NCBI GenBank assembly: GCA_964016885.1 | Contig: OZ024746.1 | Location: 53,692,001 to 53,756,000, forward strand | Direction of reading: 5' to 3' | Length of the DNA stretch: 64,000 nucleotides | DNA from: Eledone cirrhosa | Lineage: Eukaryota | Shown: positions 1 to 46,125 of the stretch, one piece after another | Layout of the letters: each line of letters begins with the position of its first letter | Position numbering within the stretch: the stretch's first letter is position 1 | Notes under the pieces: model-generated | Told to the model about the DNA's origin: nothing | Databases searched by the model: none | What the model saw: only the letters and a program-made list of their open reading frames with translations | Position numbers and translations under genes: made by a program

Positions 1-2882
1 ACAGCCTCAAACAGTTAATCGACCGATCTGACCTGGCCGATAGATATCGATTAGATTTTCCGACTGTGCCACTGTGGACGTGGACTAATCGCAGCGGAAC
101 ATCTAGATCGTACCTAGATAGGGTTCTAGTTAGAAATAAGGATAGGGACATGTTAAGCTGTCCACAAATGTTCATGGTTGCCTATTCAGACCTGCATGGC
201 CAACCTTGATAGAACCCATAGACAAGGACCCGGCTACTGGAAGCTGAACTTGTCGCTACCGACAAACAAATCCTACAGTAGACGGATTAGCACGTTAGTT
301 AAACAGCACTTGACAGGGGCCATTGTCAACAACAGATGGTGGTACTCTCTCAAGAGGGCAGTTAGATTAGACTCGTTAGTTTTTAGTAAAGAATTAGCGT
401 TAGATAGAAATAGAACTGAGAAGGAACTGGTAGATAAAGTAGAAGAGGCATTTAGAAGTGGCAACGTAGCCAGGGTGCTAGCAACGAGAACGGCCTTGGA
501 CCAGTTCTTCGACGCAAAGCACGAGGGCTGCGTTGTCAGAAGCAAAATAAGTGCTCTGGGAAACGAGTGAGCCAAAGCTGTTAGCTGGGACCGAGTGACG
601 GAGGCAAAAAGTGGCAACAGTCCACGATTCGGTCTTTGAAGGACCAAAACGGACGCGTGATACGTGAGCCGAAGCAGATGTGTGCGGCCTTTCAGCGGCA
701 CTTTGCTCAACTGTTCGGGCGGGGCGGCGCGCCAGGAGGGGCTATGGATTTCGGTCCATACCTCGACGGCCTACCGCGACTCTCGGACAGCGAGGCAAAG
801 TTCTGCGAAAAGCCGATTTCAGCCGCTGAGATAGGGGACGCGCTGAGCCAATGCGGCAAACGAAAATCTCCAGGTCTCGACGGTCCACCCTATGAATTTT
901 ACGTAGCAATGCCGGACTTATTCTCCGGTCTCCTGGAAGCGGTCTACTGCAACTGGCAACAGAACGGGAGAATTCCCATTTCTGTAACCGGGGGCGTGGT
1001 CACACTAGTCAGGAAGGACGAGAATAAGGGGGATGACATAGGCAACTTCCGGCCCATAACTCTGCTAAACACAGAGTTACAGATTTTGGCCAAGGTGTTG
1101 GCAAAGAGGCTGGCACTTGTCGTCGAGAACCTGGTGGGAGAAGCGCAGACATGCGCAATCCCGACCAGGTCCATACACGACAACGTCCACCTCATGCGAT
1201 ACATCATAGAGAGGGTAGGGTGTAAACCCGGCTTCGGTGGGGCCCTGATCAACTTGGATCAGTCTAAGGCTTTCGATAGGGTTGACCATCGTTAGCTGGA
1301 TGCGCTGCTCGAGGCGGCAGGCTTCGGACCCGTGTTCAGGGTCTGGATTGTTGCAATGCACAACAGCAACATCTGCTCAAAGATCAACGTGAACGGCTAC
1401 CTCTCGGAGCCGTTCCATATTACGCGATCCATTCGACAGGGATGCCCTCTCTCCTCCCTTCTGTACGTACTGACTCTAGATCCACTACTGCGGAAGTTGG
1501 AGCTATTGCAGGGCATCCCGCTGGAACCGGGAATGCGGTCGAGCGCCTCGCAAATCGAGGAAGTCGGCACCTTACTGAAGGAATACGAGAGTTTCACAGG
1601 AGCGAAGCTGAACCGGGACAAGTCCATCGGTTTGCAACTCGGATCGTGGAGAGGCAAACCAATGCTTTCCGATGGCGTCGTCGGACGCTGGACGGAAGGA
1701 CCCGTAAAGCTGCTCGGGGTCTGGTTTGGTCCGGACCTCCAGGTGGAGAAGAACTGGAACGAAGTGTTTGCACTCACCCAGAAGTGGGTCGAGTGCAGAC
1801 TATCCTTGAAAGGTCGAGCGGAGGTGGCGAACACTTTTATAGCGTCCGCCATCTACTACCGCTTGACCGTCGTGCCTTGTCCAGCCAAAACGCTCTCCAA
1901 AATGGAGCGCGCGCTCTTCAAATTCCTTTGGAAGACGCGGGCTCCTTTGGTGAGAAGATCCATCTGCTGCCAACACCCTTCTAACGGAGGGCTGGGGATG
2001 GCGTGGTTGACGATGCGCAAACACGCGCTCAGGCTGCAGCATCTCTACGTATTTCTCACCGGACAACCGGTGTGGGCCCCATTCGTAAGGCGAGCCTTCC
2101 CACGACTCGTCTCGCTGACCGAGCTGCAGTCCTGGGTCAAGCAAAGACCGAGGAAAATGGGCGACTGGCACATCTAATGTGCTCAGGCGCTCACAGCCCT
2201 CTGGCAGGCGGACCCGGCGATCAGTGGAGACTCGACTTCGTCATTCTATAGAGGGTTGATCCGCAGCAAGTGCGACGACGCGCTCGGTGAAACTCTAGGC
2301 GTAGAGGAAGATGAACTGGCCAGTCTGTTCGGTAGGACCTTCCGCCCGGGACCGATGGACAACTTCCAAAAGTCCCTGGCCTGGCAGTGCTACCGAGGAG
2401 CTCTACCAGTTCGAGACAATCTCTACAGACATGGGCGCCCGGGCAGGGACCCTGCAAAAAAGATCTGTCCGAGGTGCGTGCGTAACGAAGAAACCGTCGC
2501 GCATGCATTCATACACTGCCCGGGCGTTACTGACCTCTGGGGCTATGTAGAACGACTATTGTCGCGGGTGGGACCAATGCAGTTGACCACCGAGTCCATT
2601 GTCATGATCAAACCCCCACCCGCCTTCAAAAACGAAGGAGAGGCGGTTTTCCTTTGTGTGATAGCTATGGCGAAAGAGGTTGTATGGTGGACAAGGTTGA
2701 AAGGGCTGAGGTCAGACACCTTTCTCTCCGGCCAACAACTGATTCTTTTTTTCAAATACCACTTTGGAAGAAGAATCAGGATGGAGAGAGAGGTGCTGTA
2801 CCCCAGCAAGTTTTATGAAAGGTGGGTGAAAGTGGCGAGAATGGCCCGAATGAATGGGCCTTCTCTCTATATCAGACTGTAG
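1..2882 (+). pseudogene. Copy A ORF2 (APE endonuclease-reverse transcriptase), disrupted
   Basis: Stops at 568-570, 1293-1295 and 2175-2177; the AYADDVTVMV catalytic segment present in copies B and C is deleted near 1537. Confidence 0.9.
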
Positions 2883-3120
2883 GTTGAGGAAAAGGAGGAG
2901 GAGAGGAAAGGAGTACAAACTCTTCGTACTCCTGGAGATGAGGGTTTCACATTTTTTCGGGGGTATGTGTTACCCATATGAACTGTCTCCCCCTATTGGG
3001 GAAAATCGACTAATTTTTTAAATTGCATTTGTGATAACATTTTACACGTTTTTATTGTATGTAAACTTCCCCCTTTGTATTTGTCCCCTTCTTTTGTGCC
3101 CCTGTGGCTAATAAAGAAAC
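1..3120 (+). mobile_element. Tx1/L1-clade non-LTR retrotransposon, copy A (5' part outside window), defective
   Basis: ORF2 fragments with the end of the APE domain (SYLDR), GPGYWKLN, KSPGLDG, NFRPITLLN, LDQSKAFDRV, SIRQGCPLS and a C-terminal CPRC...H...C; 3' UTR ends AATAAAGAAAC followed by ATATCTATCT. Confidence 0.93.
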
Positions 3121-3442
3121 ATATCTATCTCTCTTTCTGCTTGACGCGTGGAACATCGCCGGTAAGCTTTTTTGTTAATTTCTATGCAAAAAACCAAACT
3201 AATTGTTTGAAAAAACATAACACTTTGTAGATTAACCCCAAGCTGAATTGTCAGCTGGGCGGTAATCCCATTTTTCGCCCCTGTAGGGGCAAAATTTTAT
3301 TTTAAAAATTTGTTTTAAAATATCATATTTTACAAACTAAATAACTTGACCAACACAAGAACGCCGGAGAACGTTAATAGAGAAAAGTGAGAGGACGTCG
3401 CCATAGATACAAGTGTCAACAAAGAGAAAAATATATTAACAC

Positions 3443-5164
3443 TTGAAAATTTTAAAATTTCTACCGTCGAAGCGGAGAAAAATAACAATAACACAGGAAA
3501 ACACAGGAATTAAACCCATTAACATACATACACATGAAAAAGACATAAACAACTCTACAGATACATATACACATAATGTTTCACCTCGACAAGGAACTGA
3601 GATTTCCAACAACGATAACAACAACAGCAACACCACACAAAAAAAGAAAATGTCTTTCGCTGAAACAGTGAACAAAAAACAAGATTTTATAAATCTTGAT
3701 ATCTCTAACGCAAGAGATAAGCTCCAGCAAGGGAGAAAATTCGTAACTTTCGAAGAAAGAGGTGGGTTTAGAATTAACTCAGCCCTTAAAATAAAGGAAG
3801 AAACAATCCGCAGATCAGTCACTTTTAGGACTGTGTCAAATTCCACAAGAAAGCCGACATTTGTTCACCAAGCAGATATAGAAGATACTTTCAAGGAAAT
3901 TCTAGCAAATGTCGATTTTCTCCAGCGAGGAAAACAGTACGGAAGTGTTTCCGTACTGTTTAAAAGCGAGGCACTCGCCCCAAAAAACTCTGTGACACCA
4001 ATGGTGTCAAAAGCATACACCTTTTTCCCTACATACATGGGAAAAAGGACACAAAAACTAAAACTAAAAAACATACCTCCAAACATTAACATATGGTGGA
4101 TCTTGGCTGGCTTCGTAGAGCCAGAAACTGATATGATACTTTCAATACGAAAATCTATTCGACAAAGGTGGGCGGGCACAGATTTGGAGATTCTGTTGCA
4201 AATGAAACCGGAGAGAATCTCCAAAATACCCGAAAGAGTCGTTATTGATAATAACAACAGAATAAACATTTCGGTAGAAGGACGAATATTTCATTGCTTT
4301 CGCTGTGGTAGCACAGCTCACCTAAAAGCCTCTTGTCCACAAACACACAACAACATCATAAAAAAAACGCTATTACCAACACCAACACCAAAACAACCAC
4401 CACCATCACCACAAGTACAACGACAGACGAAACGAGCAACCACACCAAAACAAACAGACACTCAACCAACAACAACAGAAAAAACAGAGACAACACCCCT
4501 GAAGAACACAGCCCCACTCCATCCCACTCCATCAAACACTACCACAAACACACATACCGAAACACCACCACCGCACAACATACCCTTACCCCACACACCT
4601 GACGATGATTATTCATCGGCGGATGAAGCTGCTTCTTCTTTAAGTGAAGAAGACGGAGAACCGCGGAAATCTAAAAAACAAAAAAAGAGACACCACAAAA
4701 CCCCCAAACTCCAATCACCAACACCAACACACAACCACAGACACAAACAACAACACAAACAACACCACAGTCAAACATCCCCCTATCAGCAAAACCAGCA
4801 CCAACACCACCCCAAACACAAGCACCCACCATAAAAAGAAAACTCCCGGACGAACAACAAACTAAAACAACACAACAAAAACACAAACAACAAGAGTTTG
4901 ATGGAGGTCATCTCCCAAAACCCCAAGGTGGAGACGGAGGGAAAAACTTTCGTCAAGGCAGAATCGTCTCCACACCTTAAACTTATAAGGGTTTCTATGG
5001 AAACCTATAAAGACCTAAAAAATAAATGTTCACAGGACGTGGGCAACCCCTGCCACAAACCCATCAACCGCGTCCTGTTAAAATGTTTCCCCACCCCACC
5101 CAACACCCCATCCAGCACCCAAATGGAGATTGAACAACCCGATCTCCAGGAAACGAAAAGGTAA
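3443..5164 (+). pseudogene. Copy B ORF1 (gag-like, CCHC zinc knuckle, Pro/Thr-rich region)
   Basis: CFRCGSTAHLKASC = CX2CX4HX4C; homologous to copy C ORF1 (PTYMGKRTQ/PSYMGKRTQ, QMKPERI, INISVEGR, KPINRVLLK); interrupted near 4832; start codon uncertain. Confidence 0.85.
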
Positions 5165-5205
5165 GTGCACCTTTCGTCCTTTTTCTCCAACTTTTCTTCA
5201 CCAAA

Positions 5206-8200
5206 ATGGCTAGTTTACGAGTTGGAACCGTGAATGTGCGTGGCCTAGGGATGCCCTGAAAACAGGGCTAACTTTTAAACGACCTTAGGTCACACAGTAT
5301 GGATGTGATAGCCATCACCGAGTCCAGAATCCACAACAGGCAGCAACTAACCCCCATCTTTGACGACTTTGAGATCTACGCATCTCTCTGTCAGCCAGGA
5401 GGTGGAGGTGGAGTGGCTGTCATGTTTCGGAAGAACCTGGACGTCGGAGTACAGCAAGTACACTTGGACCCGGAGGGTAGACTGGTAGTCCTAGACGTGA
5501 ACAGTATCGGAGGTGGAGCCTTCAGACTGGTGGCCGTTTATGCCCCGACCGGGCAATCGCAATCACGGCCAGACTTCTTTAAGCGTATAGAGTCTTTTCT
5601 GGGAACGTCTCGCTTCTTACTTATAGTGGGGGACTGGAATGGTATGCTAGATGCACGATGGGACTATGTGGGAGCGGGGTGCAACAGCCTCAAAACTTTA
5701 ATCGGCCAATTCCAACTGGCCGATAGGTATCGACTGGATTTCCCGACTGCACCACAGTGGACGTGGGCAAACCGCAGTGGGACATCTAGATCGTATTTAG
5801 ATAGGTTCTTCATTAGAGAAAGGGACAAGGAGATGTTAAGCTGTCCACGAATGCACATGGTTGCCTATTCAGATCACAAGTTAGTCGTCTGCTTAGTCAA
5901 CCGTGATAGAATACATAGACAGGGTCTCGGATACTGGAAGCTGAACGTGTCGTTGCCGGCACGTAAAGCTTACAGTGGTCGGATAAGTAGACTAGTCAAA
6001 CAACAGTTAACGAGAACCATCAGAAACAATAGATGGTGGTACTCTCTCAAGAAAGCAATTAGAATAGAATCGATAGGGTATAGCAGAGAGTTAGCCTTAG
6101 ACAAAAACAGAATAGAAAGAGAACTAGTAGCCAAGGTAGAGGAGGCACTTAGAAGTGGCAACGCGACTAGAGTGTTAGAGTCGAAAACGGCACTGGACCA
6201 GTTCTTCGATGCGAAACACGAAGGCTGCGTGGTCAGAAGTAAAACACGTGCTCTAGGAAACGAAGGAGCGAAAGCTGTCAGCTGGGCCCGAGTGGCGGAG
6301 GCAAAAAGTGGCAACAAGTCTACGATTCGTTCTTTGAAAGACCAAAACGGACGCGTGCTACTTGACCCCAAGCAAATGTGCGCGGCCTTTCAGCGGCACT
6401 TTGCGCGACTGTTTGAGCAGAACGACGGTGAGCCAAACGGGGCAATGGACTTTAGTTCATACCTCGACGGCCTGCCGCGTCTCTCGAACACGGACGCCGA
6501 ATTCTGCGAAAGACCGATCACGGACACTGAGATACGGGACGCTCTGGGCCGCTGCGGGAAACGCAAGTCACCCGGTCTAGATGGTCTACCCTACGAGTTT
6601 TACATAGGCATGCTGGACTTGTTCTCTGGCGTCCTCGAAGCCGTCTACTGCAATTGGCAGCAGAACGGGAGAATTCCCAGTTTTGCAGGCAAGGGCGTAG
6701 TAACGCTGATCAGGAAAAACGAGAATAAGGCGGACGAAATTAACAACTTCAGGCCCATAACTCTGCTCAACACAGAGTTAAAGATTTTGGCCAAGGTGCT
6801 AGCGACGATGTTGGCGCTTGTCGTCGAGAACCTGGTAGGGAAAGCGCAAACGCGTGCAATCCCGACCAGGTCCATACACGACAACCTCCACCTCATGCGA
6901 TACATCATAGAGAGGGTGGGTAGTAAACCCGGCTTCGGTGGGGCTCTGATCAACTTGGATCAGTCTAAGGCATTCGATAGGGTCGACCATCGATACTTGG
7001 AAGCGGTTCTCAAGGCGGCCGGTTTCGGTCCCGTGTTCAGAGGATGGATCGAGGTGATGCACACCAGCATCTGCTCGAGGGTCAAGGTGAACGGCTACCT
7101 ATCGGAGCCGTTCGCAATCACGCGTTCCATTCGACAGGGGCGCTCTCTCTCCTCCATTCTGTATGTATTGACTCTAGAGCCACTACTGCGGAAATTGGAG
7201 CTGTTGCAGGGCATCCCTCTAGAACCGGGACTGCGTAAAGCGGCGTTGGCTTATGCCGACGACGTTACGGTAATGGTGTCGAGCACCTCGGAAATCGGGG
7301 TGATCGGCAACTTACTGAAAGAATACGAAACGGTGACGGGAGCAAAACTAAACCCGGACAAGTCTGTCGGTTTGCAACTCGGTACGTGGAGAGGCAAACC
7401 GATGACATCCGACAGCGTCGTTGGACGCTGGACGGACGGACAGGTGAAATTGTTCGGGGGTCTGGTTCGGTCCAGACCTCCAGGTGGAGAGAAACTGGAA
7501 CGAGGTCACGGCCAAGGTGTTTGCACTCACCCAGAAGTGAGCAGAGTGCAAACTGTCCTTGAAAGGTCGAGCAGAGGTCGCGAACACTTTCATAGCGTCC
7601 GTCATCTACTACCGCATGACTGTCGTGCCTTGTCCCCGTGAACACCTCGCCAAGATGGAACGCATGCTCTTCCAGTTTCTGTGGAAGAAGCAGGCTCCGC
7701 TGGTGAGGAGATCCGTCTGCTATCAGCACCCTTCCAACGGAGGGCTGGAAATGCCGTGGCTGATGATGCGCAAACATGCGCTGAGGCTGCGGCAACTCCA
7801 GGTATTTCTCACCGACCCCCAACCGGTGTGGGCACCGTTTGTGAGACAGGCTTTCCCACAGCTCGTCTCGCTGACGGAGCTGCAGTCCTGGGTGAAGAAA
7901 AGACCGAAAACGATGGGCGCCTGGCACATTGAATGCGCTCAGGCGCTCACAGTCCACTGGCAAGCGGGCGCAGCAACCAGTGGAGACTCCACTTCGACAT
8001 TCTATAGAGGGATTGTACATTACAAGGGCGACGACGTGCTCGGAGAGACTGTGGGCGTCGAAGACGATGAGCTCACCAGTCTATTTGGTAGGACTTTCCT
8101 CCCGGGACATATGGACAATCTCCAGAGGTCCTTGGCTTGGTAGTGCTACCGAGGAGCTCTACCGGTTCGTGACAAGATCTACAGGCACGGACGCCCCGAC

Positions 8201-8631
8201 AGGGATCCTTCCAAGAGGACGTGTCCAAGATGGGCGCAGGACATTGAAACAGTCCTGCACGCAATTGTACACTGCCCGGGCGTAACTGACCTGTGGAACT
8301 ATGCAGAACAACTGCTGTCGCGTATGGGACAAATCCAGTTGACTGCCGAGTAAGGATCAAACCGCCAGCCTCTTTCAAAAACGAAAGAGAGGCGGTTTTC
8401 CTCTGTACGGTGGCTATGGTGAAAGAAGTTATATGGTGGACGAGGTTGAGAAGACTGAGAACAGATGCCTTTCTCTCCGGACAACAATTGATTCCCTTCT
8501 TTAAGTATCACTTTAGAAGGAGAATCAGGGTGGAGAGAGAGGCACTGCACCCCAGTAAATTTACTGAAAGGTGGGTGAATGAAGCAAAAATGGCCCGAGT
8601 GATTGGGCCTTCTCTGTTTATAAGCCTGTAG
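5206..8631 (+). pseudogene. Copy B ORF2 (APE-RT-CCHC), disrupted
   Basis: ATG at 5206 (MASLRVGTVNVRG) with two early stops; VYAP, GDWN, SDH and AYADD motifs; frameshift near 7455 and further stops. Confidence 0.9.
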
Positions 8632-8964
8632 GTAGAGGAAGAGAGCAAAAGGAAGAAAGGAGCACTTGCACAACACGCTCCTGGAGTTGAGGGTTGTTCT
8701 ATCGACAGGGTATTAAACAACCCATTTGTAGCCCCCCCCCCCCCCTATTGGGGATTTCGATTGTTGTAATTGTTTGTTTTTTATATTTTTTACCTGACTG
8801 TATGTATAATCCCCTGCATGTCTTTGTTTTGTCCGCTTTTCTTGTGCGCCCTTGTGGCTAATAAATAAATATATCTATCTATCTATCTCTCTATTTATTA
8901 TTTTGTTCTTCTTCAAGGGAATTCAAAATAGCTATACTGTACTCTTTTATGGGGGAAGATTTAC

Positions 8965-11011: not shown

Positions 11012-11359
11012 GAAGAAATTAGCAAAACAAACAGAAAGAACAAGACAGTGAACGAAACATTTTTTTTTTAAAGGGGAAACCTTAAACGAATGTCACAGAA
11101 CTCCAGGTTCACTGGCTGTTGAGATGGACTATCAACAATACAGCTGTTTCACCCATGGTCACAGCGTCTGACACAAGTGAAAGTGCTGTCCTATGGTGTA
11201 AGAGACGTGACAAAATAGCAACTTATAGCAATGAAACTGTGACAAGTATGCATAGACATGTGACCCATTGAAATTAATGTATATATATAATCAAGGTTTA
11301 GCAAATAGAGAAAAAGTTTTTAAATACATTTAAAAAAGTTTACTGTACCTACTATATTT

Positions 11360-11443
11360 ACCCTTACCGCGCGGTTTCAAGTCTCAAAATAAATGGATAA
11401 TCCATGCGGAAATCCATTGAGAAGAAGACTTTCGTCAGAGGGT
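11360..11443 (-). ncRNA. Type I hammerhead ribozyme motif in a PLE-like fragment (11283-11787)
   Basis: Minus strand: ACCCT-CTGACGA-AAGTCT...AGACTT-GAAA-CCGCGCGG-TA-AGGGT; palindromic stem III, GUA site. Confidence 0.82.
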
Positions 11444-11781
11444 TCTTCTCACTCGGAGAATATAAAATTCCCGAGTTCAAATCACGAACTGGTGCCATAC
11501 AGAACTGTTCCCAGATGAGAGTGTATGATGAAAAAAAAAAAATCTTGTCTAGTGCCGTGTGTAAAAATAGAAGGCAAGGGCGGAAAGGTCAATGTCGTGC
11601 CACTAGAAATAGCAGCAGTTAAAACGACCAAAATGTTATCTCGACCAGGGGAGATTAAGTATGTTTTCCTACATGCAAAAAATGCATATAGGGACACATG
11701 TATTATCCAACCGTATACCTATGTGGTTCTATGGCAGGTTAATAAATTAATAAATTAACGAGCCAGAACATATATAATCAA

Positions 11782-11856
<75 letters not shown>

Positions 11857-12052
11857 ATATTATATATGTATGTATATATTATATATGTATATATATATTA
11901 TATATGTATATATATATTATATATATATATATGTATATATTATATGTGTATGTATATATTATATGTATATATTATATGTATATATATATATTATAAGTGT
12001 ATATATATATATATATATATGTAGATAAATCTACCAAGAGTTTACGGTAGTG

Positions 12053-12887
12053 TCTTTTTTCTTTTTTCTTTTTCTTTTCTTTCCTTTTTAATGTTTATTT
12101 ATTATTTATTATTTTTTATTTTCTTAGTTTATAGATACATCTATAATAAGCAGTCTGCCCAAACCGTTGAATACTGACCTCTCCCCCCCTCCCACCTAAT
12201 TTCTGTATCTTGATCTAAAAATGTGTGTGCCAGTGTTTATGTGAGTGAATTAATATCCATGTGCTTAGGATTTTATATCCACATATATATATGTGAGTGG
12301 GGGTGTGTGTGTGTTTGTATGTTCGTAGTTATGTGTATGTTTATGCATATACGCGCGTGTGTGTGTGATTGTACGGATATGTGTGAGTATGAGAATATGT
12401 GTATACACTTATTTCATATTTATGTGTCTATACGCATCTTATCTGTGCATTATAAACTTACAGAGACATTAACCTTGAAATTTTGTATTTGCATCCATCC
12501 TTTTGGTATGCGTATACAAGTTGAGCATACATTTTTGTAAAATATGTGTAAGGGTAGTTACATGTATATACACACACCGAACTGCATTAAACCTTTTGTA
12601 TTTTCATTGGTCAATTTTGTTCCCAAACGGACCTGAAATTTTGAATTGTTGTTATTATCAATAAATATATTTCATTATTTCTGAAGACGGCGTATATATG
12701 TGTTGGTATGTATATTTAATCTTGATAGTTTGTATAATTTTGTATAATTTTGTACATAGATCTGTTGAATATGCATGCCAATTCTAACACATATATATCC
12801 TAGAAACGATCGTTAAATAATGAACTTTTTTTGTTTAATATAAGGAACTGTTTCATTGTTTTATTCATTATTTGTTTAATATTTTAT
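12053..12887 (+). repeat. PLE1 5' pseudo-LTR
   Basis: Matches 18721-19555 at offset 6668; only two substitutions noticed by eye. Confidence 0.95.
12671..12824 (+). ncRNA. Type I hammerhead with ~115-nt stem II
   Basis: TTCATTATTT-CTGAAGA-[long hairpin]-GAAA-CGATCG-TT-AAATAATGAA; perfect 10-bp stem I; predicted cut after 12814. Confidence 0.8.
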
Positions 12888-13174
12888 CTTGACTCTGTAT
12901 ACCGTTTATCTTTCATCGAAAGTGATTTTTCATTACATCTCTTCTTTCCATGATATCCGGAATACATTGAGTTCTTCATACGGATTGGACACTACCGTAA
13001 ACTCTTGGTAGATTTATCTACATAATTTTGCTCCTATTTTCACGGAAATATTCGTATTTTTGTACTGTATGTGTGTATTAATTTTATATTTATGTATATA
13101 CATATATATGTATGATTTTATAAACCCATATACATTTAGTTGAGCTCTTTCAATTGTCCATCATCCATATCACA

Positions 13175-15616
13175 ATGGAAAAACAATATTTGGGAACCTC
13201 TTTAAAAAACATACCAATACCTTCTAAGGATGACTTCTTACTCCTTATGATTCAAAAAACTAATAATTTTATCAGAAGGGTTAGATGGAGAGCCTACCAC
13301 TTCGATAGAAAATCTAAACAAGCAGATCGGAAATATATGTATGATTTCAATACTTACAAGAATCCACCACACAACTTTTTACTTGAAGACTTCGAGAAAG
13401 ACCTTTTTAATTTAATTAAACACCTCAAATTTAAAAAGTATAAATCCGTCTTTCAAAAGGACCTTGATTCTACCCTATTGGACCTAAAAAAGTCTAAAAA
13501 AATCCATGTCCACTCGGACAAAACTGGTAACTTGTATCATATGGATATTGAACATTATAATGAGTTCATATATAAAGAACTCAGAAAAAATTATAAAAAA
13601 TCTAATAATGCGTCACTCACCAACATCAACAACAAAACACACAACATAGTAAAAAAACTAAACATTGAAGATAGAACTGAACCTTTGGCATTGAAAAGAC
13701 CACACTTCAACCTGAAGGATCATAAATCAAACTTTAACTCAAATCCTTCTATTAGACTTATATGTCCCTCCAAATCAGATATTGGAATAATTAGCAAAAA
13801 AATTTTGGATAGAGTCATCCCACAAATAAGAAAACACGTTATTTTACCACTCTGGGAAAACACCTCCCAGGTAATTAACTGGTTTAAAAATATTAGATGT
13901 AAATCTTCTGCTTCATTTCTACAATTTGATATAGATAATTACTATTCTTCTATATCACCTATACTCCTGAACAAAGCATTGATATTTGCTAAAAATAGAT
14001 CTAACTTAACTTTGGATGACATTAATATTATTACACATGCTAGACTAACACTTATTGAATTTCAGAATGAATACTGGACCAGAAACACATATAGTAATCT
14101 ATTTGATATTACTATGGGTTCAAGCGATTCCGCCCAAATTACTGATCTTGTGGGCCTCTTTCTCCTTTTCAACATAAATGCCTCCTTTCCCCACCTCAAA
14201 GGTGGTTTATATCGTGATGACTGTCTTCTTCTTTCTAACAACCTTAGCCTTTCAGAAATTGAAAAAAACAAAAAACATATTAGAACTTTCCTTAAAGACT
14301 ATTATAATCTTAATATTACTTTTGAAAAAACAAGTAAAGTAGTAAATTTCCTAGATATAACTTTAGATTTAGCTACGGGTATCTACCAACCTTACCATAA
14401 ACCAAACCAAAACTTACATTACATACACTCACAATCTAATCACCCTAAATCTATCCTTAAAAACCTTGCATATAATATATCACTTAGAATTTCTAACCTT
14501 TCTTCTAACCAAGATGTATTTGATAAAAATGCGACCTTCTATAACGAAGCTCTAGATAGAAGTGGCCACAAAAATAGATTAGAATATATACCTTCTACTA
14601 AAAATACTGAAAGCATACAACCTAATATTACCAACAAACACCAAATGAAAAGTACACACCTAAATGCCACCCACACTATACCCCAAAATACCAAATCTTC
14701 TAATATAAAGTATAGTAACTCTCAAAAAACTACTCATCATACAACTCTAATAAATATTAATAATAAAACTCCTAATAAAAAGGATAAAACACCTAAATCT
14801 ACAAATATAACTAAAAATGGTTGTGGTGAGATCATTAACATTAATCCTCCTAGTAAAAATCACGATACAACCTATAAAAATAATAAAAATAATAAACAAC
14901 ATAGAAACCGTAATAGACGGATTACTTGGTATAATGCTCCATTTAATTTACAAATTAAGGATAATATTGCTAAAAAATTTTTTTATATCCTAGAGAAAAA
15001 CTTCCCGCCAAACCACAAATACCATCAAATCTTAAATAGGTCTACAGTTAAATTCTCATACTCTACAACAAATAACATAAAACAAAATATAAGTGCCTAT
15101 AATGCATATAAATGTAAGAAAACCATAAGTATACCACCAGTACATCAAATTAACCATAATATCTCCTCAAATACAGAATTAACGAAAGGTTGTAACTGTA
15201 GAAACAAAGCAAACTGCCCATTAAAAGGGAATTGTCTTGTTAACAACATAGTCTATAAATGTAATGTTAAAACTAAAGATTCTATTTGCTCATATATAGG
15301 AGCTACCTCTAACAATTTTAAGACAAGGTTTAATACCCACAAGCATAGTTTTAAAAATGCCGCACTGGCTAATACAACATCTCTAGCAGAAAAAATCAAT
15401 AGTTATAAAAATAAGAATATAGAATATGTTTTGACCTGGAGTGTGCTCAAAAGAGCCACCCCTTATCAAAATAATAGAAATGAATGTAGATTATGTTCCC
15501 AAGAACTATTTGAAATAATGAAATCTAAGGATATCCTATTAAATAAACGACAGGAATTAATTATATCGTGTAATCATAAACTAAAAAAAACATTTAAATA
15601 TTATAAACCTAATTAA
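13175..15616 (+). CDS. PLE1 reverse transcriptase + C-terminal GIY-YIG endonuclease (813 aa; probably Hydra-type PLE clade)
   Basis: SLKNIP N-terminus, SDKTGN, FLQFDIDNYYSSI, ITMGS, LYRDD, FLDI, YHKP, SNHP, CNCRNKANCPLKGNC linker, IVY...YIG, CRLC, LNKR; uninterrupted; clade label from memory. Confidence 0.92.
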   Translation: MEKQYLGTSLKNIPIPSKDDFLLLMIQKTNNFIRRVRWRAYHFDRKSKQADRKYMYDFNTYKNPPHNFLLEDFEKDLFNLIKHLKFKKYKSVFQKDLDSTLLDLKKSKKIHVHSDKTGNLYHMDIEHYNEFIYKELRKNYKKSNNASLTNINNKTHNIVKKLNIEDRTEPLALKRPHFNLKDHKSNFNSNPSIRLICPSKSDIGIISKKILDRVIPQIRKHVILPLWENTSQVINWFKNIRCKSSASFLQFDIDNYYSSISPILLNKALIFAKNRSNLTLDDINIITHARLTLIEFQNEYWTRNTYSNLFDITMGSSDSAQITDLVGLFLLFNINASFPHLKGGLYRDDCLLLSNNLSLSEIEKNKKHIRTFLKDYYNLNITFEKTSKVVNFLDITLDLATGIYQPYHKPNQNLHYIHSQSNHPKSILKNLAYNISLRISNLSSNQDVFDKNATFYNEALDRSGHKNRLEYIPSTKNTESIQPNITNKHQMKSTHLNATHTIPQNTKSSNIKYSNSQKTTHHTTLININNKTPNKKDKTPKSTNITKNGCGEIININPPSKNHDTTYKNNKNNKQHRNRNRRITWYNAPFNLQIKDNIAKKFFYILEKNFPPNHKYHQILNRSTVKFSYSTTNNIKQNISAYNAYKCKKTISIPPVHQINHNISSNTELTKGCNCRNKANCPLKGNCLVNNIVYKCNVKTKDSICSYIGATSNNFKTRFNTHKHSFKNAALANTTSLAEKINSYKNKNIEYVLTWSVLKRATPYQNNRNECRLCSQELFEIMKSKDILLNKRQELIISCNHKLKKTFKYYKPN

Positions 15617-16069
15617 TAACATTATTTTAGAAATTAATTTAATTTAAATGTTAGTTAACCTATAAATTTAATTTAATTAAAATTCTATTACAGATGAGAA
15701 TATAAAATATTATGTAATCATAAATTGTGAAAAACCTTTAAATATTACTAATATATACTTAGTAATTTAATTTATAGATTAATTTTAATTTATTTAAACC
15801 TTTTATTATAATTCCTTTACAGATAAAATATAACAAAATATCGTGTATCCAATGACAGAGAAATAATTTTTAGTATTATAGACCTAATTAATATACATTT
15901 TAGAAATATATTTATAATTTGGTTTTAAATTTAGTCAACCTAAAAATTTAATTTAATTGGCTTAAAATTAGTATCCTTATACAGACGAATTGCAGAATGT
16001 CATGTAATCATAGAATGGGATGTGTTTTGGATATATACCTAGTTAATATATTCTTTGCAATTTTTGAAA

Positions 16070-16104
16070 AAATATGTATATGTATATATGTATGTGTATG
16101 TGTA

Positions 16105-16147
<43 letters not shown>

Positions 16148-16919
16148 ATGTATATATATATGTGTATGTATATGTATATGTATATGTATTAATTTTGATT
16201 TCTATTTGCATATAATTATATTCTGCTATTGATAAAATACAATATCTGTTTTATTATATACCTAATTAACATATACTATAGAAATAAATATATAATTTTT
16301 AATTTAGTTAACCTATAATTTATATTCTACTACCGATGTAATACTTTATTTGTTTTTTCCCTATTACTAAATTCACTTCCTAATATTGATACCATAACGT
16401 TATTAACTTTAATTTAGTTATACTATAATTAATACTCTACTACTATTTAACTTCAAAATTCTGCTTCAAATATTATAAACCTAACTAATTTACACCTTAG
16501 AAATAAATATGTTAACTATCTTTAGTTTAGTTAACATATAATTAATGGTATACTTATTTATTTTGAAATGCATAAATTTTGCCTTATTTCTTATTTATTG
16601 TATTTCCTAACACTGAAACTATGTAAAAACATACATTGGATCCAGATACGGATAATATTCTATGTTTCTTGAAACATATATTTACTATAATCCCCTTCTC
16701 CAACCCCCCCCTTTCCCCCATACTATTATCATCTGTGTTTGGAAGCGTGTCTGTATGAATATATATGTAGGTAGGTGTATATATGTTTGGGTATTTATAT
16801 CTGAATATAAAAATACATATATGCGCATGCAAATAAGAATGTAAGATTGTGTGTGTATATATATGTGTGTATGTATATATATGTGTGTACATATGCATGT
16901 GTATATATGTGTGTATGTG

Positions 16920-16986
<67 letters not shown>

Positions 16987-17233
16987 ATGTATGTATGTAT
17001 ATATGTGTGTGTATATATATGTATGTCTCTCTATTTATATGTCTATCTTCGTATCTATGTGGATATATGTGTGTGTGTGCATGTATACACATATATGTGT
17101 TTACGTGTATATGTGTGTATGTGTATATATGTGTGTGTGCACACACATATATATGTGAGTGTGTGTATGTGTGTGTGTATATGTATGTGTATATATATGT
17201 ATATATCTATGTGTGTATATATGTCTATATTCG

Positions 17234-17270
<37 letters not shown>

Positions 17271-17493
17271 TATTATTATAATATAACTTATGTGTATGTG
17301 TGTATATGTGAGGGTGTGTATATGTATATATATGTGTATATATATGTGTAAAAAAATATATATGTGCATGTCTGTTTTTTTTTTTTTTTTTTATGTGTGT
17401 GTATATATATATATGTGTATATATATGTATATGTGGGTGTTTGTATGTGTGTTTATGGTTGTATGTGTGTGTGGGTCTATATATATATAAGTG

Positions 17494-17530
<37 letters not shown>

Positions 17531-17863
17531 ATATATATCTCTATTAATGCGTGTATATATGTATATGTATATGCCTTTTTCTTTGTATGTCTGAGTTGTG
17601 TGAGGGTGTAGTGGTGTTTCTATGTATATATGCATATATGGATGCGTATGTATTTGTATATATGAGTATATGTAAGTGCGTATGTATGTATGTATGAATA
17701 TATATCTAATTCTATGTATGAGTATATATGTGTGTGTATGTATGTTGTGTGTGTATGTATGTATATGTCTATGTGTGTATATATATATGTATGTATGTGT
17801 GTGTATGTATGTATGTATGTGTATGTATGTACATATATGTCTATGTATGTGTGTATGTATATG

Positions 17864-17898
<35 letters not shown>

Positions 17899-18100
17899 TT
17901 ATTTTTTATATATATGTGTGTGTGTGTATGTGTGTGTGTGTGTGTATATATATCTTTATATATGTGTATGTGTATGTTCGTGTAGGTGTATGTGTGTGTA
18001 TGACTATATATGTATGTGTGTATGTGTGTATGTGTATATATATCTATGTGTGTGTACATGTATGTATGTGTATGTATGTGTATGTGTGTATATGTGTATG

Positions 18101-18134
<34 letters not shown>

Positions 18135-18438
18135 TATATATATATGTATATATATGTATATGTTTCTCTATTTGTATATGTATATGTGTATAGGTATATA
18201 CCTTTTTCTTTATATGTCTGAGTTGTGTGAGAGTGTAGTGGTGTTTGTATGTATATACCGATATATGGATGCGTAAGTATTTGTCTGTATGTATGTATGT
18301 ATGTCTGTATGTATTTGTGTGTATATATAGGTATGTATGTGTATATCTGTATGTATATAAGTATGTAAGTGTATGTATATGTGCGTGTATGTGTGTATAT
18401 ATATGTGTGTCTATATAGTATGTGTGATTATATGTGTA

Positions 18439-18517
<79 letters not shown>

Positions 18518-18659
18518 ATTTATATGTATGTGTGTATATGTATGTATGTGTGTATATGTATATGTTTATATATGTGTGTGTATGTATGTTCTAAGTGTGG
18601 ATGTGTGTATATGTATGTATGTGTTTGTATATATATGTATGTGTATATGTATATATATG

Positions 18660-18709
<50 letters not shown>

Positions 18710-18710
18710 C
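16070..18710. repeat. Degenerate (TA)/(TG) microsatellite-rich tract inside the PLE1 3' UTR
   Basis: Lies between the ORF and the 3' pseudo-LTR; internal duplication about 17574-17657 vs 18201-18283. Confidence 0.85.
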
Positions 18711-18720
18711 TTGATATATT

Positions 18721-19546
18721 TCTTTTTTCTTTTTTCTTTTTCTTTTCTTTCCTTTTTAATGTTTATTTATTATTTATTATTTTTTATTTTCTTAGTTTAT
18801 AGATACATCTATAATAAGAAGTCTGCCCAAACAGTTGAATACTGACCTCTCCCCCCCTCCCACCTAATTTCTGTATCTTGATCTAAAAATGTGTGTGCCA
18901 GTGTTTATGTGAGTGAATTAATATCCATGTGCTTAGGATTTTATATCCACATATATATATGTGAGTGGGGGTGTGTGTGTGTTTGTATGTTCGTAGTTAT
19001 GTGTATGTTTATGCATATACGCGCGTGTGTGTGTGATTGTACGGATATGTGTGAGTATGAGAATATGTGTATACACTTATTTCATATTTATGTGTCTATA
19101 CGCATCTTATCTGTGCATTATAAACTTACAGAGACATTAACCTTGAAATTTTGTATTTGCATCCATCCTTTTGGTATGCGTATACAAGTTGAGCATACAT
19201 TTTTGTAAAATATGTGTAAGGGTAGTTACATGTATATACACACACCGAACTGCATTAAACCTTTTGTATTTTCATTGGTCAATTTTGTTCCCAAACGGAC
19301 CTGAAATTTTGAATTGTTGTTATTATCAATAAATATATTTCATTATTTCTGAAGACGGCGTATATATGTGTTGGTATGTATATTTAATCTTGATAGTTTG
19401 TATAATTTTGTATAATTTTGTACATAGATCTGTTGAATATGCATGCCAATTCTAACACATATATATCCTAGAAACGATCGTTAAATAATGAACTTTTTTT
19501 GTTTAATATAAGGAACTGTTTCATTGTTTTATTCATTATTTGTTTA

Positions 19547-19555
<9 letters not shown>
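18721..19555 (+). repeat. PLE1 3' pseudo-LTR
   Basis: Copy of 12053-12887, ends directly in (TA)n. Confidence 0.95.
19339..19492 (+). ncRNA. Second copy of the PLE1 hammerhead
   Basis: Same motif as 12671-12824. Confidence 0.8.
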
Positions 19556-19641
<86 letters not shown>

Positions 19642-19756
19642 TATATATATATTATATACGTATTTATATATTATATATATATATATATGTGTGTGTGTGT
19701 GCATTCATATATGCTTGTACACACACACACACACATCTCACTCTCTCTCTCTCCCC

Positions 19757-19853: not shown

Positions 19854-20177
19854 TGATTTCCTGTCAAACCGAACCATCGCATCGTGTGCCTAAGGGTTAC
19901 TCTCTTACCCACATTCTACCAGTTACTATGTACTCCAAATTGTGGTATGTGTCTATGTATAAATGTAGGTATTTATACACACGCACATATATATGTACGT
20001 GTGTCTACATTTTATCTCTGACCCACATTCTGACATACCTAGTGTTTCTCAAGTTGATAACGTCTTTCTTACATAATGTTCTTTCTCTGAACTAAATACA
20101 CACTTGTTATTCCCTTGAATAGAACATAGACCTATGTAGAATGATGAGAATGATGATGATAAGGATGATGATAATAA

Positions 20178-20540
20178 TTGTTTCTACGTTTGGCACACGG
20201 CCAGTAATTACCCAGTACATTACTGGTACTTTATTTTATCAACCCCGTAAGGATGAAAGGCAAAGTTAACCTCGGCAGGATTTGAAATCAGAATGGCAAG
20301 GGCCGTAACTCTATGCGTCAAAGCATGGCGTCCGACCCTCTACCGATACTGCCAATCCAACAGGAAGATGATAATAATTGTTTCTACTTTAGGCAGAAGG
20401 CCAGCAATTACCCAGTACATTACTTGTACTTTATTTTATCGACCCCGTAAGGATGAAAGGCAAAGTTAACCTCGGCGGGATTTGAACTCAGACTGTAAAG
20501 GGACGTAACTGTGCTGGAAAGCATGGCGTCCAACCCTCTA
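20178..20540 (-). mobile_element. Two tandem tRNA-derived SINE copies (family S1)
   Basis: Reverse complement of the 23421 copy, including B box GAGTTCAAATCC and the shared GGTTAACTTTGCCTTTCATCC core. Confidence 0.85.
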
Positions 20541-22566: not shown

Positions 22567-22608
22567 AGAAAAAAAGAGAATCTGTGTAGCAACGAATGGA
22601 ATTTATTG

Positions 22609-22704
22609 GACATATTACAATCGTTTCTCTGGCGACCAGGCCGACGCACGATCGATGTGATGATCGAAACTGACTCTGAAAATCGCAAGGTCTTCAGATA
22701 CGTC
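22609..22704 (-). ncRNA. Type I hammerhead with extended stem II
   Basis: Minus strand: GACGTAT-CTGAAGA-[~63 nt]-GAAA-CGATTG-TA-ATATGTC. Confidence 0.78.
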
Positions 22705-23165
22705 TTGATTCTACAAAGCAGATTTTCCTATTTTCCAATTTTATAGATATACAAATATATATATACATATATATATATGTGTGTGTATGCATATATATAT
22801 GTATGCATATATATATATATGTATGCAAATATATATGTATGCATATATATATATGTATGCATATATATATATGTATGCATATATATATATATATATATAC
22901 ATATGTATGCATATATATATGCTTATATATATGTATGACTATATATATATATATGTATGCATGCATATATATACATATGTATGCATATATATATGTATGC
23001 ATATATATATATATATATATGTATGCATATATACATATGTATGCATATATATATATGTATGCATATATATACATATATATATATATATGTATGCATATAT
23101 ATATGTATGCATATATATATATATGTATGCATATATATATATATATGTATGTATATATATATGTC

Positions 23166-23602: not shown

Positions 23603-23767
23603 ATATTATATATATATATATATATTTATACTTAGGTTAATAGGAGTTAGGTATTGTATACCCGTGTCCCATTAAGGTATTGGCAGCATAATAATTAGCT
23701 CTATGCTTTGGAGCAGAGACGTATATATGATAAAGAACACAAGAGCGTCTACAACATCAAAAGATTT

Positions 23768-23825
23768 TTTATTGGCTTACAATGTTTCTTCCTTACGTAA
23801 CCGTAGGATTCGTCAGAGCTATAAA
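23768..23825 (-). ncRNA. Minimal type I hammerhead
   Basis: Reverse complement of 24175-24232. Confidence 0.8.
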
Positions 23826-24174
23826 GGGTTTGATTGGTGTTATGGACTCTACCAACCAAACATTCAAGAACAAAGAGTAAAGAGAGTAAAGAGCAAAAGT
23901 AGGGGACGATAAGTCTAATTTTGGTGCGGGAGGGTGGGGTGTGGGTCCTTGTTTACTAGCTGCGGTCATATTCATTCCCGGGAGTCGAGTGGTTAGTTGA
24001 GCCATAGACTCGACTCGACTCCCGGGAATGAATATGACCGCAGCTAGTAAACAAGGACCCACCCCCACCCCCGCACCAAAATTAGACTTATCGTCCCCTA
24101 CTTTTGCTCTTTACTCTCTTTACTCTTTGTTCTTGAATGTTTGGTTGGTAGAGTCCATAACACCAATCAAACCC

Positions 24175-24232
24175 TTTATAGCTCTGACGAATCCTACGGT
24201 TACGTAAGGAAGAAACATTGTAAGCCAATAAA
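24175..24232 (+). ncRNA. Minimal type I hammerhead
   Basis: GCT-CTGACGA-ATCCTACGGTTACGTAAGGAA-GAAA-CATTG-TA-AGC; cut predicted after 24222. Confidence 0.8.
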
Positions 24233-24380
24233 AAATCTTTTGATGTTGTAGATGCTCTTGTGTTCTTTATCATATATATTTATATGTATGTATATATGTA
24301 TGTGTATATATATATACATGTGCACACACACATATATAATATATTATATATATATTTATATGTATATATAGATGTATATG

Positions 24381-27167: not shown

Positions 27168-27369
27168 TTCCTTTGTCAGTGTTGAACAAACGAGCAACGA
27201 TGGTTGGTAGACACTACGGCTTAATACGGGATGTTTGTTTACAAATACACCGAGCATTATAATAAATGTTCGGTGAATCCATACGTACATATATATATGT
27301 GTGCATGTATGTATATATATATACATACGACTTTACGTATGTATACATATATGTATGTACGTGTACATA

Positions 27370-27467
<98 letters not shown>

Positions 27468-27472
27468 TATGT

Positions 27473-27547
<75 letters not shown>

Positions 27548-27606
27548 GCGGCGATGAATTAGTTTTGCGAGGTTTTTTATATGAGGTTTTTGCGAGGTTT
27601 TTTATA

Positions 27607-29433
27607 GCTAGCAACTACAGGATCTCCTACTTCCTCTCAATGGTTATACGCCCCATAATCAAGATGTCCCCAGATGTATGTGAAAGTACAGAGGACCTCC
27701 TCAGCAGAATCAGTGAGTGCAACAAAAACAGGAGCCTATCCAACTGCATAATAGGCAGCATGGATGTGGTGTCACTGTACCCATCCATTAACATTGATTT
27801 TGCTGTGAAAAGATGTGTGGAGATGATCATTGAGAGTGAGGTGGAGTTCTGCGACGTCGACACAGACGAACTGGGCCTCCTACTTAGACTTACCTCCGAC
27901 ACTGACTACCTAGACAGCCATGACCTTAGATGTTTCTGCCCTAGTAGACCTATAAGAGGTAGACCCCCCACCATAACCTCAATGGCTAAAAAGACTCCCA
28001 TAGGAAGGTGGATTGGGTGGACCAAAGCTATACGGACCCCCCAAAACACTGATCAGGTAAGAAAAATGGTCGCACATGCAATAGGGGCTAGTATCAAAAC
28101 TACCCTAAAGGGCCACATATTTAAGTTCAATGAGAAAATCTACACCCAAAATGAGGGAGCAGCCATCGGCGTCAGCATAGCTGGCGATGTTGCCAACCTT
28201 TTCATGGTATGGTGGGAAAGGAGACTTAAAGATCTCCTTAATGAAAGCTCCATAGACCTCATCATGTACTCTCGTTATGTAGACGATATCAATATAGTTA
28301 TAAGAACACCCCCACTAGAGAGCACTAACAAGTTTGATTTAGAACGTAGCACGATGGAAAGCATCCAGCAGATAGCTAATTCCATACACCAGAGTATAAC
28401 TGTAACTATAGACTTCCCTTCCAAACACCCTAACAATAGACTACCTGTATTAGACACAGAACTCTGGATTAACACTATAGACGAGAGAGCCCAAATTCTC
28501 CACTCACACTATGCTAAACCCATGGCCTCCAAATACCTGATACTCAAAAACTCAGCAATGTCCAGTAGTGCTAAGTTTAATATTCTGATCGCAGATTTGG
28601 TACGAGTGATGAAGAATGTGTCCAGCATGTGCGACCCAACAGAAATGGAAGGACACATCCAACACTTCATCAACCGCATGCAGTTCTCTGGCTACAACCA
28701 AAGAGACAGAGTCAGAGTATACGAAGGAGCCATGGAAAAGTATAAGACCCTCATAGAACTGGACATGAAAGGAATTTGCCCACTATACAGGAGCAAATCA
28801 TGGAATAGCTTAGATAGGGCTAGACATAAGATAGGGAAGGCCACATCATGGTACGACAACCAGAGATATCAGAGTGTCATGTTTGTGGACGCCACCCCAG
28901 GAGGGAAATTAGCTAACCAGTGTAGAAAGGCCCTGAGAAAGACCCACTTAAAAATAAAGGTGGTAGAAAAGCCAGGAACCACCATAAAATCCCTGATCAG
29001 CAAAACCTACCCTTTTAAGAAAACCCACTGTACCAATAGGAAATGTATCATATGTAAGGTGAACCCCCGGATAAACTGTAAAACTAGAAACGTAGTCTAT
29101 AGCATAAGATGTACAGAGGGTACTTGTAGAAACACGACAACAACATACATAGGTGAGACAGCTCGTAGCATAGGTGAAAGGATAGACCAACACTGGGGGG
29201 AACTAAAAGGACGAAAAAACGGGTCAGTACTATACGAACATGCTAGACAACATCATGACGGTAACATAGACAACATAGAAATTAGAATAATATCTAAACA
29301 TAGGAATGACCCAGCAGATAGGCAAATCAGAGAGGCCAGTGAAATAGAAATTAGAAGACCAAAGCTAAACAGAAAGAATGAGTGGAACAACAACAACACC
29401 CAAACAAACAACACTGACCTAAGAGAAGTATAA
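27607..29433 (+). CDS. PLE2 RT + GIY-YIG endonuclease, open frame but 5'-truncated
   Basis: [49 protein letters not shown] linker, VVYSIRC...C...YIGETAR...H...H, LNRKNEW. Confidence 0.88.
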
Positions 29434-42400: not shown

Positions 42401-42433
42401 GTCTCTACACTCTCCTTTGGCTCTGCCGCCCAC

Positions 42434-46079: not shown

Positions 46080-46125
<46 letters not shown>

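What the first reader, a model, noticed from the sequence alone, without database searches (positions are those of the whole stretch)
12671..19492. Intact PLE1 bracketed by two hammerheads with a giant stem II, predicting a 6668-nt unit RNA
Seen: stem II spans ~115 nt with nested helices (TATATATGTGTT/AACACATATATA; TGGTATGTATATTTAA/TTGAATATGCATGCCA with three G-U pairs). Predicted cuts after 12814 and 19482 release one repeat unit containing the whole ORF. Inference: a young, potentially active element needing no promoter-defined ends and possibly circularising. Such long-stem-II motifs would be missed by standard descriptors.
Basis: partly seen in the sequence, partly recalled or inferred. 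Interest (0 to 1): 0.7.

Follow-up and report, generated by a model that had tools for sequence, protein, structure and literature searches.

The report
Penelope retroelement with oversized hammerhead ribozyme
This is an intact young copy of a known kind of animal jumping gene that carries a self-cutting-RNA motif with one arm several times longer than in its relatives, and the broken ends of thousands of its copies mark a likely RNA start rather than the predicted cut, while its long copies look as if they were read from an RNA with no end there, possibly a circle.

Summary
Observation confirmed. An 813-aa RT + GIY-YIG ORF (13175-15616) lies between 835-bp direct repeats (2 mismatches), each with a type I hammerhead whose stem II domain is 115 nt. 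In 54 of 77 related loci it is 10-25 nt; Rfam misses this one. The element fits the Hydra clade of Penelope-like elements, is young and has thousands of fragments.

Copies end 3' at two fixed sites, 12887 and 13024 (23 of 23 short palindromes use one of each). A third of hammerhead copies (3326 of 10112) begin at 12674, an initiator-like site 7 nt before the core; only 35 of 7746 show a foreign C/G at the predicted cut. Yet 0 of 52 ORF-spanning copies stop at 12674, and arrays of up to five near-identical units exist. This favours an end-less template, a ribozyme-made circle or a read-through RNA. The ribozyme is predicted to be mostly off (weak palindromic stem III, decoy hairpin). Cleavage, circles and expression are untested. 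The scan noted oversized hammerheads and fixed stop spots before on other DNA of this genome.

The parts
11787..12017 (.). (TA)n-rich left flank, likely the target
12018..12054 (-). 37-bp inverted arm, exact reverse complement of 12988-13024; likely the second cDNA, primed at the 13024 site and aborted
   Evidence: 100% identity; interpretation inferred
12053..12887 (+). 5' pseudo-LTR (835 bp)
12660..12665 (+). AATAAA kept 8 nt before 12674 across subfamilies while the spacer varies
12674..12674 (+). 5' stop hotspot of genomic copies; the A of an initiator-like TCATT; likely RNA 5' end
12671..12824 (+). type I hammerhead motif, copy 1; predicted cut after 12814 (GUU)
12688..12802 (+). 115-nt stem II domain: C.A closing, G.U and G-C, C.C mismatch, 13-bp helix, 6-nt bulge, about 16-bp helix, distal hairpin
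12815..12861 (+). predicted decoy hairpin that sequesters the 3' strand of stem I
   Evidence: pair probability about 0.9; z -1.86 on its own
12888..13024 (+). 137-nt tail between the two fixed 3' ends, 12887 and 13024 (likely RT start sites)
13175..15616 (+). 813-aa ORF: telomerase-like RT, N/K/T-rich disordered linker, CxCx5C, C-terminal GIY-YIG nuclease
15617..19341 (+). 3.7-kb microsatellite-rich 3' region, carried by sister copies
18721..19555 (+). 3' pseudo-LTR; ends at the 12887-equivalent site
19339..19492 (+). type I hammerhead motif, copy 2 (identical); predicted cut after 19482
19556..19690 (.). (TA)n-rich right flank

Best explanation
This is an intact, young Hydra-clade Penelope-like retrotransposon whose terminal repeat carries a hammerhead motif with a 115-nt stem II; its protein likely nicks (TA)n DNA and starts reverse transcription at two fixed internal RNA sites, short copies likely run off a transcript that starts at 12674, and long copies likely come from an end-less template, most probably a circle that the normally repressed ribozyme would release only rarely. 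Shown: the anatomy, the clade motifs, the two 3' ends, the 12674 hotspot, the near absence of ends at the cut, and seamless tandem arrays. Inferred: the transcription start, two-site priming on both target strands, rare dimer- or protein-assisted cleavage, ligation by a host enzyme, and rolling-circle reverse transcription. The long stem II forms on paper and tolerates mainly A-U/G.U swaps; its job is unknown, most likely a stable scaffold that is not needed for the chemistry. Clade membership alone about 0.95; two-site priming about 0.85; 12674 as a true RNA 5' end about 0.75; circle as the template of long copies about 0.5.
For: Clade: RWR, DKT, CxCx5C, CxxC and CxH, YRDD (against PMC8557442 section 11); best folds telomerase RT (E 4.9e-9; Z 16.2, rmsd 7.4, 346 aligned) and the I-TevI catalytic domain (Z 9.6, rmsd 2.3, 89 aligned, residues 690-793). 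3' ends: of 30 loci, 16 end at 12882-12887, 12 at 13024, 2 run on; 23 of 23 short head-to-head palindromes have one arm of each kind, matching the two start sites of PMC11167929. 5' hotspot: 3326 of 10112 exact copies of the 15-mer at 12674 lack the native preceding C, against 271 one base further up; one locus repeats the 13 nt from 12674 three times (L146). Cut site: foreign G in 20 of 7746 at 12815 against 667 of 10112 at 12674. Long copies: 0 of 52 ORF-spanning copies that reach the hammerhead stop at 12674-12681, against 29 of 65 tail-started arms (Fisher p 1.5e-9, copies not all independent). Units within an array differ at 0-7 sites per 3 kb, between arrays at 2-38. Repression: 2-bp monomer stem III, palindrome duplex -13.8 kcal/mol, stem I probability at most 0.001 once 12890 is included.
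Against: No cleavage, RNA end or circle was observed. In the one PLE tested in vitro, hammerhead mutants inserted normally and no RNA-seq reads ended at the cut (PMC11167929). Covariation in stem II is weak: only 2 of 52 pairs change on both sides (414 of 500 shuffles as high), and shared breaks exist at the pair 12701:12789 and at helix ends. The A-to-G swaps could be RNA edits fixed by reverse transcription rather than selection (inference). An extra cap-derived G is only modestly enriched (667 G against 271 non-native C without a preceding T), and fold-back arms can supply that G. Homogeneous arrays can also arise by DNA-level duplication. The S-base test at the cut misses ends followed by A or T; 7 of the first 10 such hits were true junctions at 12815, so a minor class (about 1% or less) exists.
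Confidence: 0.5

Rival explanations
1. Same element and priming, but no circle: long copies and arrays come from uncleaved read-through or multimeric transcripts (host promoters, upstream units) or DNA-level duplication, and the hammerhead cuts rarely or serves another step such as translation or RNA turnover.
For: Unprocessed RNA was the main substrate in vitro for the anole element (PMC11167929). The catalytic fold is predicted to be disfavoured. Multi-unit arrays that could be transcribed exist. Naiads spread without canonical hammerheads (PMC8557442).
Against: Linear templates that start at 12674 should leave some ORF-spanning copies ending there; 0 of 52 do. The hammerhead is kept in at least 54 of 77 related loci.
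Confidence: 0.3
2. 12674 is not a transcription start but the downstream end left by poly(A)-type cleavage 8 nt after the conserved AATAAA; the mRNA ends just before the hammerhead, and the uncapped downstream piece templates the short copies.
For: AATAAA is kept at a fixed 8-nt distance while the spacer changes; a CA dinucleotide and a GU-rich tract follow.
Against: The distance is short for a poly(A) site (own knowledge); a cut after CA would put ends at 12675, while 17 arms were called at 12674 and 3 at 12675; G is modestly enriched before 12674; D. virilis Penelope has an internal promoter in the same region (PMC2377424).
Confidence: 0.12
3. One reading: efficient cutting releases a linear 6668-nt RNA whose ends define the element, with no role for a promoter.
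For: Two identical, well-formed motifs flank the ORF; a few copies do begin at 12815.
Against: 3' ends lie 73 or 210 nt beyond the cut; 1 of 54 ORF-spanning copies that reach the cut stops within 12810-12820; 35 of 7746 show a foreign C/G at the cut.
Confidence: 0.05
4. The long stem II has inactivated the ribozyme, and the hairpin is kept for another job, for example masking a 5' splice site (GGTATGT at 12705-12711) of a 5'-UTR intron like that of D. virilis Penelope.
For: The only donor-like site in the 5' UTR lies inside stem II, and an AG at 13139 is present in all 20 variant sequences listed; Penelope and Chlamys-3 have 5'-UTR introns.
Against: Core positions show no variant shared by more than 2 of 78 copies, while position 17 swaps between U and A; the pyrimidine run before the AG is lost in diverged copies; the 2 genomic hits to a junction pattern were chance matches.
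Confidence: 0.1

Closest known systems
Hydra clade of C-terminal EN+ Penelope-like elements (Craig et al. 2021, PMC8557442; section 11, passages and part 2 of 59 of the supplement read), including Hydra-1_Obim
   Same: Single RT + C-terminal GIY-YIG ORF; RWK/R, DKT, CxCx5C, CxxC and CxH; (TA)n targets; sense-strand type I hammerhead near the 3' end, often with an extra base after CUGANGA and U at the cut; partial tandems and inverted arms.
   Different: Unit 6.7 kb against 1.1-3.0 kb listed; stem II domain 115 nt against 3-7 bp with 3-9-nt loops; tail 137 nt against 30-40; linker 140 aa against a median of 46 in 71 aligned proteins. Identity to Hydra-1_Obim was not tested; its listed hammerhead is different.
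Minimal type I hammerheads of metazoan PLEs (Cervera and de la Pena 2014, PMC4209133; parts 1-2 of 4 read)
   Same: Position in both pseudo-LTRs, palindromic weak stem III that implies dimer activity, extra base at the start of stem II; the circle and more-than-unit model is proposed there.
   Different: 'Large' helix II there is 6-8 bp; the G10.1-C11.1 pair is replaced here by C.A followed by G.U, G-C and a C.C mismatch.
Anole Poseidon element PAc (Frangieh et al. 2024, PMC11167929; parts 1-2 of 4 read)
   Same: Two internal RT start sites downstream of the hammerhead bound the tail; both target strands are cut and extended; AT-rich targets; no RNA ends seen at the cut.
   Different: Start sites here lie in the 5' UTR and 137 nt apart; different clade; here a genome-wide 5' stop hotspot sits just before the hammerhead.
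Drosophila virilis Penelope promoter and intron (PMC2377424, passages read) and Adineta vaga Penelope (PMC3846280, passages read)
   Same: Transcription start and initiator-like motif in the pseudo-LTR; head-to-head inverted arms; N-rich inserts between RT and EN.
   Different: Promoter and intron are only inferred here; the head-to-head arms are explained here by two-site priming rather than by an antisense template.
Animal non-LTR retrozymes (PMC7229834, passages read; bioRxiv 10.64898/2026.07.22.740005, part 1 of 5 and passages read)
   Same: Tandem units bounded by type I hammerheads; circles shown for those RNAs.
   Different: They are 170-400 nt and non-coding; this is an autonomous 6.7-kb unit.

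Membership tests
Penelope-like element (EN+) | Telomerase-related RT | tested here: met
   Top fold hits are TERT; D252 and YRDD invariant aspartates in 71 of 71. Pfam found no family for the protein.
Penelope-like element (EN+) | C-terminal GIY-YIG nuclease | tested here: met
   I-TevI catalytic domain, Z 9.6, rmsd 2.3, 89 aligned, residues 690-793; Y694, Y707, G709, R718 invariant
Penelope-like element (EN+) | Pseudo-LTRs, partial tandems, inverted arms, one-sided tail | tested here: met
Hydra clade | RWK motif, DKT, CxCx5C linker, CxxC and CxH around E and N | tested here: met
   RWR 37-39, DKT 115-117, C673/C675/C681, C771/C774, C799/H801
Hydra clade | (TA)n insertion preference | tested here: met
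   TA-rich sequence follows the 3' end in 28 of 28 terminal arms
Hydra clade | Short unit (generally under 3 kb) | tested here: not met
   6668-nt unit; a typical trait in PMC8557442, not a diagnostic one
Hydra clade | Phylogenetic placement with named Hydra families | not tested
   No named reference proteins were held as sequences
Type I hammerhead ribozyme | CUGANGA, GAAA, UH core in a three-way junction | tested here: met
Type I hammerhead ribozyme | G10.1-C11.1 pair closing stem II | tested here: inconclusive
   C.A, then G.U and G-C; extra bases at this place are usual in Hydra motifs and L326 also has C.A
Type I hammerhead ribozyme | Structure supported by covariation | tested here: inconclusive
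   95.7% of cells paired, 17 further pair types, only 2 of 52 pairs change on both sides; 26 close sequences
Type I hammerhead ribozyme | Self-cleavage | not testable with these tools
   No assay; no raw RNA reads
Non-LTR retrozyme | Short and non-coding | tested here: not met
   813-aa ORF in a 6.7-kb unit

The most novel reading that the evidence does not exclude
An autonomous Penelope-like element propagates through a 6.7-kb protein-coding circular RNA made by a switchable hammerhead with a 115-nt stem II. A decoy hairpin keeps it off until the element's protein binds the tail; linear transcripts from 12674 give only short palindromic copies, while circles give all full-length copies and arrays by rolling-circle reverse transcription. 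The genome would then hold a two-template footprint that explains why PLEs keep hammerheads.
Probability: 0.3. Interest if true: 0.75.

Novelty: new variant of a known kind. Interest (0 to 1): 0.52.

Why it matters
What hammerheads do in Penelope-like elements is open: PMC4209133 proposed circles, PMC11167929 found cleavage dispensable in vitro, and PMC8557442 calls the function unclear. This family offers an intact young donor and thousands of copies whose ends separate two template classes, with exact coordinates for RACE, circle RT-PCR and mutant assays. It also shows that hammerheads with a stem II over 100 nt escape Rfam, so counts of genomic hammerheads are likely low. The element class, the ribozyme class and the circle idea are known; the size of the arm, the 137-nt tail and the end statistics are what is new.

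Tried and rejected
(repeat finder) was swamped by microsatellites. One search was translated in the wrong frame and repeated. Pfam gave no family for the protein (two relatives hit GIY-YIG below cut-off), and the PDB sequence search gave only a retron RT at E 0.0013. The single-sequence model of the nuclease domain was poor (pLDDT 47) and was not searched.

Sequencing runs: no RNA holder listed. Four contig sets of unknown kind were laid; they showed no joint at the predicted intron and say nothing on expression. A search for an intron-less genomic copy gave 2 chance hits, which is uninformative because PLE copies keep introns. Insertion polymorphism could not be tested with one genome.

Rejected: an assembly artefact (3171 exact hits of the core 18-mer, 0 for the control; 2 differences between the repeats); low complexity as the cause of the hairpin; a hotspot of ends at the cut.

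Literature searches listed no paper on a PLE hammerhead with a stem II of this size. The longest in the table read is about 50 nt (PLE-X1_sMoe). Subscription papers are not covered, and most of the PMC8557442 supplement and all bioRxiv supplements were not seen. Look-ups of earlier findings by sequence and by words returned nothing.
Full report
Observation. The window holds a direct repeat 12053-12887 / 18721-19555 with two mismatches, and a 37-bp inverted copy of 12988-13024 at 12018-12054. Both ends of the insertion abut (TA)n. Each repeat has a type I hammerhead motif: CUGAAGA at 12681, a 115-nt domain, GAAA at 12803, a palindromic stem III and a GUU triplet ending at 12814. Rfam finds nothing at gathering score in the window and no hammerhead at E<=10 in 12500-13200.

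The protein. The ORF gives 813 aa and has 118 relatives at E<=0.001 among 7996 candidates scored, none named. A model built on 71 aligned sequences (pLDDT 85) matches telomerase RTs best, and its C-terminus matches the I-TevI GIY-YIG domain (Z 9.6, rmsd 2.3, 89 aligned). RWR, DKT, CxCx5C, CxxC and CxH match the Hydra-clade diagnosis of PMC8557442. No tree with named families was built. The linker is 140 aa against a median of 46; N-rich inserts have precedent in PMC3846280. The host is a 3.0-Gb microsatellite-rich animal genome. Cephalopod origin is a guess and was not tested.

Youth and copy number. Exact 18-mer hits: 3171 at the core, 10607 just after the cut, 2684 in the tail; a 16-mer beyond the tail has 365. 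Most copies are thus short 3' fragments. In seven regions chosen from the best hits, 11 more intact 813-aa ORFs differ by 3-9 aa, three 807-aa ORFs belong to a sister lineage, and six are broken. Distinct single-base codon variants are 21 synonymous and 33 non-synonymous against 25% expected (p 0.017).

How unusual is the arm. Published Hydra motifs have 3-7 bp with 3-9-nt loops; the longest PLE motif in that table is about 50 nt. Within this genome, subfamily variants are mostly 100-116 nt. On 26 hand-picked variants (of 85 distinct strings) 95.7% of cells pair and 17 further pair types occur, nearly all A-U/G.U swaps; only 2 of 52 pairs change on both sides, and some shared changes break pairs. 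This fits a hairpin that forms on the sense RNA but is not strong covariation. The A-to-G swaps could also be adenosine edits fixed by reverse transcription (inference).

3' ends. Of the first 30 core hits on contig C1, 16 end at 12882-12887, 12 at 13024 and 2 run on. Among all short head-to-head palindromes in my loci, 23 of 23 have one arm of each kind. The window's insertion fits: the long arm ends at the 12887 site, the 37-bp arm at 13024. This is the genomic mark expected from the two internal start sites and two-strand extension shown for the anole element (PMC11167929), with a 137-nt rather than 30-40-nt tail.

5' ends. I sampled 83 arms through the post-cut 18-mer (the first 30 hits plus 40 regions picked from the next 70 listed; one arm appears twice). 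24 run more than 230 nt upstream; 17 were called at 12674, 12 at 12675-12681 and 12 at 12645-12673 (some of these likely over-extended into TA matches); 8 fall at 12804-12826, none at 12815. Genome-wide, 3326 of 10112 copies of the 15-mer at 12674 lack the native C before it, against 271 lacking the next native base. At the cut, 35 of 7746 have C or G in place of the native U/A. Of the first 10 of these, 4 are junctions through stem I complementarity, 3 other junctions and 3 point changes. A foreign G stands before 12674 in 667 of 10112 and before 12815 in 20 of 7746. 12674 is the A of an initiator-like TCATT (consensus recalled), and D. virilis Penelope starts in its pseudo-LTR from an internal promoter (PMC2377424). 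One locus re-copies the first 13 nt three times. A conserved AATAAA 8 nt upstream keeps a poly(A)-cleavage rival alive.

Long copies. Among 70 copies that include sequence beyond the tail (the first 30 hits plus 40 picked from the next 70, skipping most inner array units), 52 reach the hammerhead core and none stops at 12674-12681; 1 of 54 that reach the cut stops within 12810-12820; 41 run to 12113 or beyond. Against 29 of 65 for tail-started arms, Fisher p is 1.5e-9, though units of one array are not independent. A linear RNA from 12674 through one unit, or a linear cut monomer, should leave ends at 12674 or 12815. Arrays reach five full units plus a part, and units within an array differ at 0-7 sites per 3 kb against 2-38 between arrays. 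A circle explains all of this; so, less simply, do read-through transcripts from upstream promoters or DNA duplication.

Is the ribozyme on. As a monomer stem III has two pairs around a four-base loop, while two copies form a -13.8 kcal/mol duplex, the dimer type of PMC4209133. The catalytic fold lies 5-7 kcal/mol above the minimum, and once 12825-12890 is present the 3' strand of stem I pairs downstream with probability about 0.9. The same strand is paired in 33 of 42 distinct variants, with a different partner in older subfamilies; alone this hairpin is only mildly significant (z -1.86). Core positions show no variant shared by more than 2 of 78 copies. All of this is prediction.

Verdict. 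A real, intact Hydra-clade element with a hammerhead variant larger than any I found in relatives or in the papers read. Earlier notes of this scan on other DNA of the same genome report oversized hammerheads, a C.C mismatch, double priming and a fixed stop spot. I reached the end statistics before reading them, and they are not independent support.

Noticed in passing
window 11348-11453 (-), 22597-22712 (-), 62356-62492 (-): Three more hammerhead-like motifs with long spacers (53, 63 and 84 nt); their minimum-energy folds do not give the hammerhead shape.
   Followed up: partly
window 27277-29433 (+), hammerheads at 27132 (+) and 26764 (-): A second Penelope-like element of another type (RT hit E 1.5e-4, GIY-YIG-like C-terminus by eye) with an ordinary short hammerhead and an inverted arm.
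   Followed up: no
window 23722-24278 and around 60094-60231: Short head-to-head palindromes carrying hammerhead cores of other families.
   Followed up: no
L123, L135, L139, L145, L260, L261; repeat also at window 20173-20540: 6 of 35 distinct junctions at 12674 join the same end of a dispersed SINE-like repeat, all in the older subfamily; a chimeric non-autonomous family or repeated template jumps.
   Followed up: partly
window 12705-12711 and 13135-13139: Possible 434-nt 5'-UTR intron that would remove most of the hammerhead and both start sites; the donor is buried in stem II. No RNA support.
   Followed up: partly
window 1-3124, 3440-8641, 40278-46082: Three related LINE copies (75-81% identical) with endonuclease, RT and zf-RVT domains.
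   Followed up: no
G000:C2:262008000-262037999 (L041-L043): An insertion with multi-unit arms in both orientations; the arms differ at 1-2 sites per 3 kb and end at 13024 and 12887, so one event primed twice.
   Followed up: partly
window 13090-13110: A further (TA)-rich hairpin in the 5' UTR just before the start codon.
   Followed up: no
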